Source of the DNA: an uncultured Oscillospiraceae bacterium | Lineage (GTDB): Bacteria > Bacillota > Clostridia > Oscillospirales > Oscillospiraceae | NCBI GenBank assembly: GCA_934591895.1 | Contig: CAKTPP010000004.1 | Location: 81,582-145,581 of the forward strand | Direction of reading: 5' to 3' | Length of the DNA: 64,000 nt | In this document: one piece after another, positions 32,938-33,128 of the stretch | Layout: each line of letters opens with the position of its first letter | How positions within the stretch are numbered: the stretch's first letter is position 1 | Program-made: the position numbers and the translations under genes | Notes under the pieces: generated by a model | Told to the model about the DNA's origin: nothing | The model's database searches: none | What the model saw: only the letters and a program-made list of their open reading frames with translations

Positions 32938-33128
32938 GTGTCGAAAATCTTGCAGAGTTTCGCCGCCGGAGCGGCGAAAGAAAGTCCAATCATTTTCTTC
33001 GGCGACATGTGCGGCGAAGAAAATACTTCTCGGCCTGCAAACGTGCGCGCCGTCCGTCTCCGGCGGGCGGCGCGTGCGCTGCAGTCAGGCCGCATACCCC
33101 CTTGTCAAAAAGTAATACTTTTTGACAG
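32938..33128 (-). repeat. intergenic repeat copy C (full length)
   Basis: The reverse complement aligns along its full length with copy A (355-542), including all four hairpins. Confidence 0.75.

What the first reader, a model, noticed from the sequence alone, without database searches (positions are those of the whole stretch)
32938..33128. Unrecognised hairpin-rich intergenic repeat family: six copies in 64 kb, all just behind terminators
The same 130-200 nt module occurs six times. Copies are at 355-542 (+), 22124-22316 (+), 32938-33128 (-), 40392-40592 (-) and 58827-58960 (-, truncated). A more diverged copy is at 21045-21128 (-). The shared core, in copy A orientation, is GCCGAGCGGTA, then TTTTCTTCGCCGCACATGTCGCCGAAGAAAA, then TnATTGG, then a short GC hairpin, then ACTCTGCGAGG. 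Full-length copies add a 12-13 bp GC stem and an AT-rich terminal hairpin (GTCAAAAAGTAnTACTTTTTGAC). The outer ends read like imperfect terminal inverted repeats: TGTCAAAAAG at one end versus CTTTTTACA or ATTTTCGACA at the other. Every copy lies in 3' intergenic space directly behind a gene's terminator, and five of six lie between convergent genes. No transposase or recombinase is present in the window. I do not recognise the sequence as BOX, RUP, ERIC, Correia, bcr1 or a REP/BIME element. One copy per ~10 kb implies hundreds per genome if the density is typical.
Basis: seen in the sequence. Interest (0 to 1): 0.7.

Follow-up and report, generated by a model that had tools for sequence, protein, structure and literature searches.

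The report
Terminator-duplicating miniature transposon family
The repeat is a real, roughly 190-base non-coding mobile element, abundant in gut Oscillospiraceae, that inserts at transcription-terminator hairpins and copies the whole hairpin onto both of its sides; this behaviour is otherwise reported only for IS1182-family insertion sequences.

Summary
The window has exactly six copies of one repeat family. The same family occurs in at least 120 gut-metagenome contigs, in Oscillospiraceae MAGs and about once per 18 kb in the Vescimonas fastidiosa chromid. It matches no Rfam family.

It is a MITE of about 186-200 nt with imperfect terminal inverted repeats (5' [G/C]AGnCTGTCAAA; 3' TTTGACAAGCTG). 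Five filled-versus-empty site comparisons show it inserts at intrinsic-terminator hairpins. Insertion duplicates the whole stem-loop (24-39 nt). In 23 of 27 cases each duplication boundary lies within 0-3 nt of a stem foot.

This signature is already documented for the IS1182-family element ISCbo5, and I re-measured it in three family members. The element also shares that family's 5' terminal palindrome. Its tips resemble ISCbo5's right end, but not its left end.

Three things remain open. No cognate transposase was found. The four internal hairpins covary strongly. The core hairpin loop (CGCACATGTCGC) is nearly constant. Neither of the last two is explained.

Verdict: a new, undescribed MITE family of a known mechanistic kind. 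Interest is moderate.

The parts
32934..33132 (-). Copy C (the finding). Full-length canonical element. Its 5' end is at 33132 (CAGCCTGTCAAAAAG...) and its 3' end is near 32934 (...ATTTTCGACACACCG).
   Evidence: nhmmer profile positions 2-194, E=2e-58; sequence; alignments A1 and A3.
32993..33023 (-). Core hairpin of copy C: TTTTCTTCG-CCGCACATGTCGC-CGAAGAAAA. The stem covaries and the loop is nearly constant.
   Evidence: Pattern match; helix 4.
32872..32893 (.). Left copy of the duplicated target for C (TTCCGGTGTCCGTCTGTTTTTT). It is part of the bidirectional rnfB terminator at 32856-32893.
   Evidence: Direct repeat of 22 nt with 1 mismatch; terminator scan; fold z=-6.0.
33133..33154 (.). 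Right copy of the duplicated target for C (TTCCGGTGCCCGTCTGTTTTTT).
352..549 (+). Copy A. Full-length canonical element with a diverged 3' tip. It sits between the terminator of the upstream + gene (323-351) and the terminator of a convergent short gene.
   Evidence: nhmmer 354-541, E=1e-54; sequence. Only a weak 8-12 nt flanking repeat is present: GGGGTTTT(GTGA) at 344-355 and 550-561.
21035..21170 (-). Copy F. Old, diverged and 5'-truncated (profile 64-198), with no flanking repeat. Its 5' part overlaps the last codons of ORF 21127..21732 (-).
   Evidence: sequence.
22124..22318 (+). Copy B. This is the B-type subfamily, with a CCAACGAGACCC..GGGCTCTCGTTGG hairpin. It lacks the terminal TGTC palindrome that full B-type copies carry.
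   Evidence: compared with L022, L032 and L083; sequence.
22109..22123 (.). Left copy of B's target duplication, AAATGAGGCGGCGAG. It contains the stop codon and the left arm of the terminator.
   Evidence: 15/15 direct repeat.
22319..22333 (.). Right copy of B's target duplication. It lies within the intact bidirectional terminator at 22321-22351.
40392..40592 (-). Copy D. Full-length element with a CATAATTTGTGCGCC-type middle hairpin. It is fixed in all 10 conspecific contigs examined.
40362..40391 (.). First copy of D's duplicated terminator hairpin, AAACGCCCGCCGGGAAACCGGCGGGCGTTT.
   Evidence: 30/30 direct repeat; the asymmetric GAAA loop shows the two copies are direct, not inverted; fold -19.2 kcal/mol, z=-5.05.
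40593..40622 (.). Second copy of D's duplicated terminator hairpin.
58833..58960 (-). Copy E. Truncated at both ends (profile 71-188).
58778..58832 (.). 55-nt direct repeat flanking E. Its partner is at 58961-59015 with 5 mismatches. It is not a single strong hairpin and its origin is unexplained.
   Evidence: fold z=-0.9.
58961..59015 (.). Second copy of the 55-nt repeat flanking E.

Best explanation
This is a family of non-autonomous DNA transposons (MITEs) of about 186-200 nt, with a roughly 210-nt 'B-type' and deletion derivatives of 100-165 nt. It is most likely moved in trans by an IS1182-family DDE transposase of the ISBma2/ISCbo5 type.

Shown: the element has conserved ends (5' [G/C]AGnCTGTCAAAAAG, folded into a terminal palindrome; 3' ...CTTTGACAAGCTG). 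It is present or absent at otherwise 94-99% identical sites. It inserts at intrinsic-terminator hairpins. After insertion the complete stem-loop stands on both sides of the element.

Inferred mechanism: the transposase recognises the target by structure (an extruded hairpin or cruciform), not by sequence. [quoted passage not shown] Repair of the two single-stranded gaps then copies the whole stem-loop. The duplication length therefore equals the hairpin length (24-39 nt) rather than a fixed number. When one cut falls in the loop, only half the hairpin is duplicated (12-18 nt, as in window copy B).

Inferred consequence: the hairpin copy on the element's 5' side keeps at most 4 nt beyond its 3' stem foot, so a terminator pointing into the element loses its T-tract there. 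Transcription probably reads through that copy and stops at the second, complete copy, which would place the element in a 3' UTR.
For: Mobility and target duplication:
- Five filled/empty pairs show one hairpin at the empty site and hairpin-element-hairpin at the filled site: L045 (two sites) vs L114, L127 vs L054, L043 vs L125, and L083/L056 vs L037.
- 34 of 57 copies with both ends anchored have flanking direct repeats scoring at least 12, against 0.3% of 300 mismatched-flank controls. The repeat abuts the element 5 nt before TGTC and 4 nt after GACAA.
- In 27 long duplications (24-39 nt), 23 of 27 boundaries at each side lie 0-3 nt from a stem foot.
- Window copies B, C and D carry 15-, at least 22- and 30-nt duplications.
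- Short derivatives keep both ends and still have 32-33-nt duplications (L059, L108). That fits end-dependent DNA transposition.

Link to the IS1182 family:
- Skarin 2011 (PMC3098183) reports that ISCbo5 inserts at gene-end hairpins. Its Table S3 lists termini cag/ctg and direct repeats of 15-44 nt, almost all complete hairpins; one is marked 'not a hairpin'.
- I re-measured the same signature in ISCbo5 on p3BKT015925 (30-nt hairpin) and in L149 and L152.
- The ISCbo5 transposase matches NF033551 (IS1182 family) at 472 bits against a cut-off of 270.
- ISCbo5 has a 5' terminal palindromic hairpin like the element's. The last 20 nt match 16/20.
- Both element tips match ISCbo5's right end better than shuffles do (p<=0.001).
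- IS1272/TnSha1, of the same family, target terminator hairpins by structure, without sequence specificity, in both orientations and repeatedly. Wan 2017 explicitly models whole stem-loop duplication (PMC4923244, PMC5678879).
Against: - No cognate transposase was found. There is no IS1182 homologue in the 1.4 Mb held at the time, which included the window and 290 kb of the Vescimonas chromid.
- There is no 0.6-5 kb unit with the element's ends in the roughly 1 Mb held at that point, and no copy is followed by a transposase gene.
- None of the IS1182-family elements I fetched carries the element's interior (ISCbo5, L149-L160, P0175/L161-L164).
- Similarity to ISCbo5's left end is not above chance (p=0.58), and similarity to most other family ends is weak.
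- 40 of 89 near-full copies show no detectable flanking repeat.
- Copy E has a 55-nt flanking repeat that is not a hairpin, and it lacks both element ends.
- Strong covariation of the internal hairpins is not required by a simple cut-and-paste MITE model.
Confidence: 0.7

Rival explanations
1. The element is mainly a functional structured RNA, such as a 3'-UTR or small-RNA module or a protein-binding RNA. It spreads like a MITE but is kept because its folded transcript does something for the host or for the element.
For: Four hairpins covary strongly: 95.8% of cells are paired against 79.5% in shuffles, 24 of 37 pairs show changes on both sides, and the covariation score is 0.441 against at most 0.095 in slid registers. 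The 13-nt core loop is nearly constant even in copies that were not found through it, namely the Vescimonas copies and L144/L145. All deletion derivatives keep the core hairpin. The insertion geometry should place the element inside 3' UTRs between two terminator copies (inference).
Against: No Rfam family matches. No promoter-like site was found around copy C. Both orientations relative to terminator polarity occur (11 sense, 4 antisense, 12 undetermined). The apparent sense-strand G-U excess came from two columns and vanished when counted per pair (10 against 11). Stems of palindromes can stay complementary without selection, through template-switch correction of quasipalindromes. Old copies decay at their ends and lose their flanking repeats. 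This reading adds to the MITE mechanism and does not replace it.
Confidence: 0.2
2. The interior is a relic of the parent IS. The element would be the 5' leader of an IS1182-family transposase mRNA joined by internal deletion to the last ~15-20 nt of the IS. The hairpins would then reflect regulation of transposase expression in the parent lineages, not any function in the MITE.
For: ISCbo5 has a 131-nt structured leader that begins with the same kind of terminal palindrome. That leader ends ...CTCCTACGGAGGCAAAATG, and the IS 3' end reads ...GGAGGCTTTTTGAACAATCTG. The element reads ...CTCTACGAGG-TTCTTTGACAAGCTG, which is what a deletion between the two GGAGG motifs would give. Different subfamilies with different modules could then come from different parents.
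Against: No parent IS with this leader was found. The leaders of the other IS1182-family elements I examined are short and unrelated. The CTACG(G)AGG match is short and could be chance.
Confidence: 0.25
3. It is a REP/BIME- or IS200/IS605-type palindromic element moved as single-stranded DNA by a Y1 (HUH) transposase such as a RAYT.
For: The element is hairpin-rich, intergenic and high-copy. It has a conserved loop in a covarying stem, which resembles HUH recognition hairpins.
Against: From established knowledge of these families, they make no target duplication and have no terminal inverted repeats. Here long target duplications are proven by empty sites, and terminal inverted repeats are present. 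The strand-specific pairing signal was not robust.
Confidence: 0.02
4. It is a SINE-like retroelement inserted by target-primed reverse transcription, which would explain target duplications of variable length.
For: Duplications are long and variable in length (12-39 nt). Some copies are 5'-truncated (window E and F, L110).
Against: Duplication length follows hairpin size, with boundaries at the stem feet. Terminal inverted repeats are present. Mobile-looking short derivatives are internal deletions that keep both ends (L003, L059, L108), not 5' truncations. The truncated copies lack clean duplications.
Confidence: 0.03
5. The copies arose by local segmental duplication or chance similarity, not as a dispersed element.
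For: None beyond copy E, whose 55-nt flanking repeat could be a local tandem duplication.
Against: Zero matches are expected by chance in the window. Boundaries are conserved.
Confidence: 0.01

Closest known systems
ISCbo5 / ISCno1 / ISBma2-type insertion sequences (IS1182 family, DDE transposase)
   Same: They insert at terminator hairpins at gene ends and are flanked by direct repeats that are the complete hairpin, of variable length: 15-44 nt in Table S3 of PMC3098183, and 30 nt re-measured on p3BKT015925. Termini are CAG...CTG with a TGTTGA/TGACAAA-type motif. The 5' terminus is folded into a palindromic hairpin. The last 20 nt are 16/20 identical to the element's 3' end.
   Different: ISCbo5 is 1.6 kb and encodes its own 454-aa transposase, whereas the element is about 190 nt with no ORF. 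The element's interior (three or four covarying hairpins and a near-constant loop) has no counterpart in any IS1182-family element I examined. Left-end similarity is not above chance. The hosts differ: low-GC Clostridium against 58-64% GC Oscillospiraceae.
IS1272 / TnSha1 (IS1182 family, staphylococci)
   Same: Targeting of terminator stem-loops depends on structure and not on sequence. Insertions occur in both orientations and repeatedly in the same hairpin (PMC4923244, PMC5678879). Different element variants at the orthologous site of window copy B are comparable.
   Different: IS1272 deletes all or part of the stem-loop and makes no target duplication, whereas this element duplicates it. 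In Wan 2017's model this is pathway b (joining at the 5' feet) rather than pathway a (joining at the 3' feet).
Classical bacterial MITEs (Correia, RUP, ERIC, MITEAba12 and others)
   Same: They are small, non-coding and high-copy, with terminal inverted repeats. They are intergenic, show presence/absence polymorphism and are presumed to be mobilised in trans.
   Different: From established knowledge of these families and the 2024 review PMC10969869, they make short target duplications of fixed length (2-9 bp), and their fold is usually one long hairpin formed by the inverted repeats. Here the duplication is a whole terminator of variable length, and the interior has several independent covarying hairpins. 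No sequence comparison with those families was possible because no library was available.
CRISPR spacer integration and casposons (Cas1-family integrases)
   Same: This is an analogy only. Integration at both borders of a partly palindromic unit duplicates that unit on either side of the insert (established knowledge; PMC5137440 appeared in the search).
   Different: There is no cas1 context. The duplicated unit here is any terminator hairpin, not a fixed repeat. The element has transposon-type inverted termini.

Membership tests
MITE (generic non-autonomous DNA transposon) | Small size with no coding capacity | tested here: met
   Full-length copies are 186-200 nt, B-type about 210 nt, and derivatives 100-165 nt.
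MITE (generic non-autonomous DNA transposon) | Terminal inverted repeats with conserved boundaries | tested here: met
   The 5' end is [G/C]AGnCTGTCAAA and the reverse complement of the 3' end is CAGCTTGTCAAAG. Flanking repeats abut at fixed offsets of 5 and 4 nt.
MITE (generic non-autonomous DNA transposon) | Target-site duplication and presence/absence polymorphism | tested here: met
   Five filled/empty pairs. 34 of 57 copies have flanking repeats against 0.3% of controls.
MITE (generic non-autonomous DNA transposon) | A related autonomous element with the same ends | tested here: inconclusive
   None was found in the held DNA, the PLSDB chromid part, IMG/VR or INPHARED. Whole host genomes could not be scanned.
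IS1182 family (ISBma2/ISCbo5 type): derivative or substrate | Insertion at hairpins or terminators chosen by structure | tested here: met
   The targets have unrelated sequences, and all long duplications contain a stem-loop.
IS1182 family (ISBma2/ISCbo5 type): derivative or substrate | Direct repeats of variable length that equal the whole hairpin | tested here: met
   Duplications are 24-39 nt with boundaries 0-3 nt from the stem feet in 23 of 27 cases. The same holds in ISCbo5, L149 and L152.
IS1182 family (ISBma2/ISCbo5 type): derivative or substrate | Family-type termini (CAG...CTG, TGACAAA-like motif, 5' terminal palindrome) | tested here: inconclusive
   The 3' end is ...GCTG, and the 5' end is GAG or CAG. 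Both tips resemble ISCbo5's right end (p<=0.001), but the comparison with its left end gives p=0.58 and other family ends give mostly p of 0.005-0.5.
IS1182 family (ISBma2/ISCbo5 type): derivative or substrate | A transposase matching NF033551 / PF05598+PF13751 in the same genomes that binds these ends | tested here: inconclusive
   No homologue occurs in the window or in 290 kb of the Vescimonas chromid. Oscillospiraceae do carry abundant IS1182-family elements (P0175, at least 1000 contigs), but with a different leader and target. Binding cannot be tested with these tools.
Rfam RNA families | A match at the family's gathering score | tested here: not met
   There are 0 hits in the window at gathering thresholds. 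The best permissive hit scores 21 bits against a threshold of 35.
REP/BIME-RAYT or IS200/IS605-type palindromic elements | No target duplication, no terminal inverted repeats, and an associated Y1 transposase | tested here: not met
   Long target duplications and terminal inverted repeats are present. No Y1 transposase was looked for.
   No repeat library (Dfam or ISfinder) was available. The differences in target duplication rest on established knowledge.

The most novel reading that the evidence does not exclude
The element is not a passive MITE. Its covarying hairpins and the nearly invariant 13-nt loop (CGCACATGTCGC) would form a conserved functional module carried from genome to genome. 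This could be a cis-acting folded DNA or RNA site needed for structure-guided transposition, or an RNA that the host now uses in 3' UTRs, bracketed by two copies of the gene's own terminator. Either would be the first bacterial MITE family with a structured, selected payload conserved across genera.
Probability: 0.2. Interest if true: 0.75.

Novelty: new member of a known kind. Interest (0 to 1): 0.48.

Why it matters
- **A large natural record of an obscure mechanism.** Structure-directed transposition into terminator hairpins is known only from a few IS1182-family studies, and its mechanism is still a model. This element supplies hundreds of natural insertion junctions, including empty sites, that fix where the strands are joined relative to the stem.
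- **Effect on gene ends.** Each insertion leaves a gene with two copies of its terminator and a structured ~190-nt insert between them. In abundant human-gut Oscillospiraceae this affects on the order of one gene end per 10-20 kb, so it is likely to matter for 3'-UTR content, read-through and annotation.
- **Practical effect on assemblies.** Many hits lie at contig ends, so the element evidently breaks metagenome assemblies.
- **An open question.** The covarying interior and the constant loop are unexplained and can be tested directly.

Tried and rejected
1. My first genome-collection scan used a pattern with a spacer one base too long. These were useful, but they are not a census.
2. Rfam gave nothing at gathering or permissive thresholds.
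3. I searched for an autonomous partner six ways. I looked for TIR pairs 0.6-5 kb apart with flanking repeats and for stray TIR motifs. I checked for copies whose profile match stops early. I ran tblastn of the ISCbo5 transposase on all held DNA. I examined IMG/VR relatives, INPHARED relatives and the abundant Oscillospiraceae IS1182 clade P0175. None has the element's interior.
4. The four phage-database hits to the 3' half looked like possible IS ends. The two I inspected (L144, L145) are full but diverged copies.
5. Strand-specific folding: an 82:14 excess of G-T over A-C in paired cells suggested sense-strand RNA. On a diverse alignment the excess came from two columns, and per pair the counts are 10 against 11. 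I withdrew that claim.
6. Copy D looked recent because its duplication is 30/30 identical, but it is fixed in all 10 conspecific contigs. Empty sites had to come from other loci.
7. I fetched only 290 of 861 kb of the Vescimonas chromid. That part has no annotated transposase, and I judged the rest unlikely to repay the cost.
8. I considered and rejected retroelement, RAYT/HUH, Cas1-like and segmental-duplication readings; see the rival explanations.

Full report

Yes. The repeat finder recovers the family on both strands. A 31-nt core pattern matches five times in the window against 0.00 expected in shuffles.

A profile built from 41 independent full-length copies finds exactly six copies in the window:
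- A: 354-541 (+)
- B: 22167-22302 (+), with a subfamily-specific 5' hairpin from 22124
- C: 32938-33131 (-)
- D: 40394-40575 (-)
- E: 58829-58948 (-)

Five copies lie between convergent genes. C lies after rnfB, between tandem genes (sequence). No Rfam family matches at gathering thresholds or with permissive settings.

**2.

Copies B, C and D are flanked by direct repeats that differ from locus to locus.
- B: 15 nt, covering the stop codon and the left arm of the terminator.
- C: at least 22 nt, part of the rnfB terminator.
- D: 30 nt. This is a complete terminator hairpin present twice in the same orientation. Its asymmetric GAAA loop shows the two copies are direct rather than inverted. The hairpin folds at -19.2 kcal/mol, z = -5.
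- E: 55 nt with 5 mismatches. This repeat does not fit the pattern; see section 11.

**3. Distribution.**

My first scan of the genome collection used a faulty pattern. It still returned eight loci, all from uncultured Oscillospiraceae MAGs, carrying a related subfamily.

Many hits lie at contig ends, as expected for a dispersed repeat.

BLAST of the consensus against annotated plasmids found 30 places in the 861-kb 'plasmid' pMM35_01 of Vescimonas fastidiosa. That replicon is really a chromid, because it carries ribosomal-protein genes, tuf, fusA, rnf and groEL. In the 290 kb I fetched, the profile finds 13 copies, none of them in a Tn916-like ICE.

The density is therefore one copy per 10-20 kb.

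**4. Anatomy.**

Canonical copies read as follows:

5' GAGAC-TGTCAAAAAGTAnTACTTTTTGACA-AAGGGG-[long GC hairpin inside an outer helix]-GAGAAGTA-TTTTCTTCG CCGCACATGTCGC CGAAGAAAA-TGATTGG...-TTTGCGCC TGCG GGCGCAAA-CTCTACGAGG-TTCTTTGACAAGCTG 3'

- The two tips are imperfect inverted repeats of about 12 nt.
- The 5' tip is also half of a terminal palindrome.
- Subfamilies swap modules: the B-type has an extra hairpin, and the rabbit-MAG type has a CTGAATTTTGCGAAATTCAG hairpin.
- Derivatives of 100-165 nt are internal deletions that keep both tips and the core hairpin.

**5. Mobility and target.**

I asked, for every copy, whether its two flanks lie adjacent in another contig. This gave several filled/empty pairs with 94-99% identical flanks. 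In five cases the empty site has one terminator hairpin and the filled site has hairpin-element-hairpin:
- L045 (two sites) vs L114
- L127 vs L054
- L043 vs L125
- L083/L056 vs L037

The duplicated lengths are about 28-36 nt.

Across copies with both ends anchored, 34 of 57 have flanking repeats scoring at least 12, against 0.3% of 300 mismatched-flank controls. The repeat abuts the element at fixed offsets.

In a profile-defined set of 89 unique near-full copies:
- 30 have repeats scoring at least 18, 19 score 12-17, and 40 have none detectable.
- The 27 long duplications that contain a hairpin are 24-39 nt.
- 23 of 27 boundaries at each side lie within 0-3 nt of a stem foot.

The duplicated unit is therefore the stem-loop itself. 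Some copies duplicate only half a hairpin (window B, L019, L024). One insertion just upstream of a hairpin has no long duplication (L058).

**6. What this resembles.**

Two papers on IS1272/TnSha1 (IS1182 family) show insertion into terminator hairpins that depends on structure, not sequence. There the hairpin is deleted. [quoted passage not shown]

Skarin et al. report that the IS1182-family element ISCbo5 sits in gene-end hairpins. Their Table S3 lists termini cag/ctg and direct repeats of 15-44 nt, almost all of them complete hairpins; one is marked 'not a hairpin' (PMC3098183). Naville and Gautheret independently found terminators upstream of ISBma2 transposases.

I located an ISCbo5 copy on plasmid p3BKT015925. 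It is 1613 bp with a 30-nt duplicated hairpin. Its transposase matches NF033551 at 472 bits against a cut-off of 270. Two further family members from IMG/VR (L149, L152) show the same signature.

**7. Are the ends related?**

- ISCbo5's 5' terminus is a palindromic hairpin containing the terminal repeat, as in the element.
- The last 20 nt are 16/20 identical.
- In a shuffle test both element tips match ISCbo5's right end (p<=0.001), and the B-type tip matches the right end of L160 (p=0.001).
- The match to ISCbo5's left end is not above chance (p=0.58), and matches to other family ends are mostly weak.

I therefore treat the terminal similarity as supportive, not decisive. The distinctive target-duplication signature is the main argument for an IS1182-type transposase.

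**8. The missing partner.**

I found no IS1182 homologue in any DNA I held, no IS-sized unit with these ends, and no copy followed by a transposase gene.

Relatives from IMG/VR, from INPHARED and from a very abundant Oscillospiraceae clade are not the parent. That clade is P0175, from 'Ca. Pelethomonas', seen on at least 1000 contigs. It inserts in the palindrome GTCCCAASTTGGGAC. None of these elements shares the element's interior.

Whole host genomes could not be scanned, so membership in the IS1182 system remains inferred.

**9. The interior.**

On 30 diverse copies the consensus fold has 37 pairs, and 24 of them keep pairing through changes on both sides. The controls are clear:

| Measure | Observed | Shuffled control | Slid registers |
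|---|---|---|---|
| Cells forming a standard pair | 95.8% | 79.5% (0/500 shuffles reach the observed value) | 38-54% |
| Cells with changes on both sides | 164 | 49 | 16-38 |
| Covariation score | 0.441 | 0.163 | at most 0.095 |

The core loop (A/C)CGC(A/G)CATGTCGC is almost constant. Among the metagenome copies this is by construction, because my search pattern contained the loop. It also holds in the Vescimonas copies and in L144/L145, which were found by whole-element similarity.

An apparent excess of sense-strand G-U pairs came from two columns and disappeared per pair. I therefore cannot say which strand, or whether RNA or DNA, is under constraint.

Possible explanations:
- a cis site for the transposase or a host factor;
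- a relic of the parent's transposase leader (ISCbo5's leader ends CTCCTACGGAGG and its 3' tip starts GGAGGCTTTTTG, while the element reads CTCTACGAGG-TTCTTTG);
- an RNA function in 3' UTRs;
- for the stems only, selection-free correction of quasipalindromes.

**10. Likely consequences (inferred).**

[quoted passage not shown] The hairpin copy next to the element's 5' end therefore loses the T-tract of a terminator that points into the element, while the other copy keeps it. Transcription would probably read through into the element and stop at the second copy.

Among the classifiable duplications, 11 are in this sense orientation and 4 are antisense. That difference is not significant. No promoter-like site was found around copy C.

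**11. Age structure and oddities.**

- Vescimonas has young copies with tips and duplications, and older ones that have lost both.
- Window copy D is fixed in 10 conspecific contigs.
- Copy F is old and 5'-truncated. It supplies the last codons of the upstream ORF, and the same fusion occurs in a related contig.
- Copy E lacks both tips, and its 55-nt flanking repeat is not a single strong hairpin (z = -0.9). I cannot explain it.
- The orthologous site of copy B carries different element variants in other contigs. This fits repeated hits on one terminator or recombination between elements.

**12. Novelty.**

I found no description of this family, or of any IS1182-derived or terminator-duplicating MITE. 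The searches covered Rfam, a 2024 review of prokaryotic MITEs and full-text literature. ISfinder and Dfam could not be consulted.

The mechanism class, structure-directed IS1182-type insertion with hairpin duplication, is already documented, though sparsely. I therefore rate the finding a new member of a known kind, of moderate interest, with an unexplained conserved interior as the part most worth following.

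Noticed in passing
window 51552-51642 and 51698-51788: A 91-nt direct repeat, 96% identical, with a 146-nt period. Each copy begins with a terminator-like hairpin (GAACCCCAGGCGGCTTGCCGTCTGGGGTT). 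This is a second, unrelated duplication that contains a terminator.
   Followed up: no
window 22883-23146: A 33-nt tandem repeat (about 7 units) inside ORF 22564..23505 (-). It encodes an acidic 11-residue repeat of roughly QPAEDDGYYDE.
   Followed up: no
window 21127-21170 (copy F / ORF 21127..21732 -): The 5' part of the old, truncated copy F overlaps the last ~14 codons and the stop of the upstream ORF. The same fusion is present in contig L014, so the element seems to have supplied a gene's C-terminus.
   Followed up: partly
L043, L030 and L125 (duplicated terminator loops): Loops of the duplicated hairpins are sometimes reverse-complemented between copies or strains: GAAAT in the empty site against ATTTC in the left copy, and AAAAT against ATTTT in right copies. 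This is a 'flip' of the loop within a palindrome.
   Followed up: no
L081 (flanks of the element): The two copies of the duplicated hairpin differ at the base of the stem in a compensated way: CTTAAGCGCAG..CTGCGCTTAAG against AGCAGCGCAG..CTGCGCTGCT. The left stem extends into the element's first bases. This is unexplained.
   Followed up: no
L161-L164 (protein P0175): A 452-aa IS1182-family transposase named from 'Ca. Pelethomonas' (Oscillospiraceae) occurs on at least 1000 contigs. The IS ends are GGGGTTGTTGACAAAG.../...CTTTGTCAACGGGCC. It inserts in the palindrome GTCCCAA(G/C)TTGGGAC and duplicates its centre.
   Followed up: partly
L014, L099 and L065 compared with window 22109-22333: The orthologous terminator downstream of the gene ending ...LLFKMK* carries different variants of the element in different contigs: canonical 5' end against B-type, and different 3' tips. 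This suggests repeated insertion or inter-element recombination at one site.
   Followed up: partly
NZ_AP023416.1 (L129, L140-L143): The 861-kb 'plasmid' pMM35_01 of Vescimonas fastidiosa carries ribosomal-protein genes, tuf, fusA, groEL, dnaK and an rnf operon. It is therefore a chromid, partly syntenic with the window. Its first 50 kb is a Tn916-like ICE without any copy of the element.
   Followed up: partly
L141:37675-37871 and L141:47961-48157: Two Vescimonas copies lie between divergently transcribed genes, 33 and 126 nt upstream of a start codon and in sense with that gene. These are not behind a terminator. They are old copies without tips or duplications.
   Followed up: no
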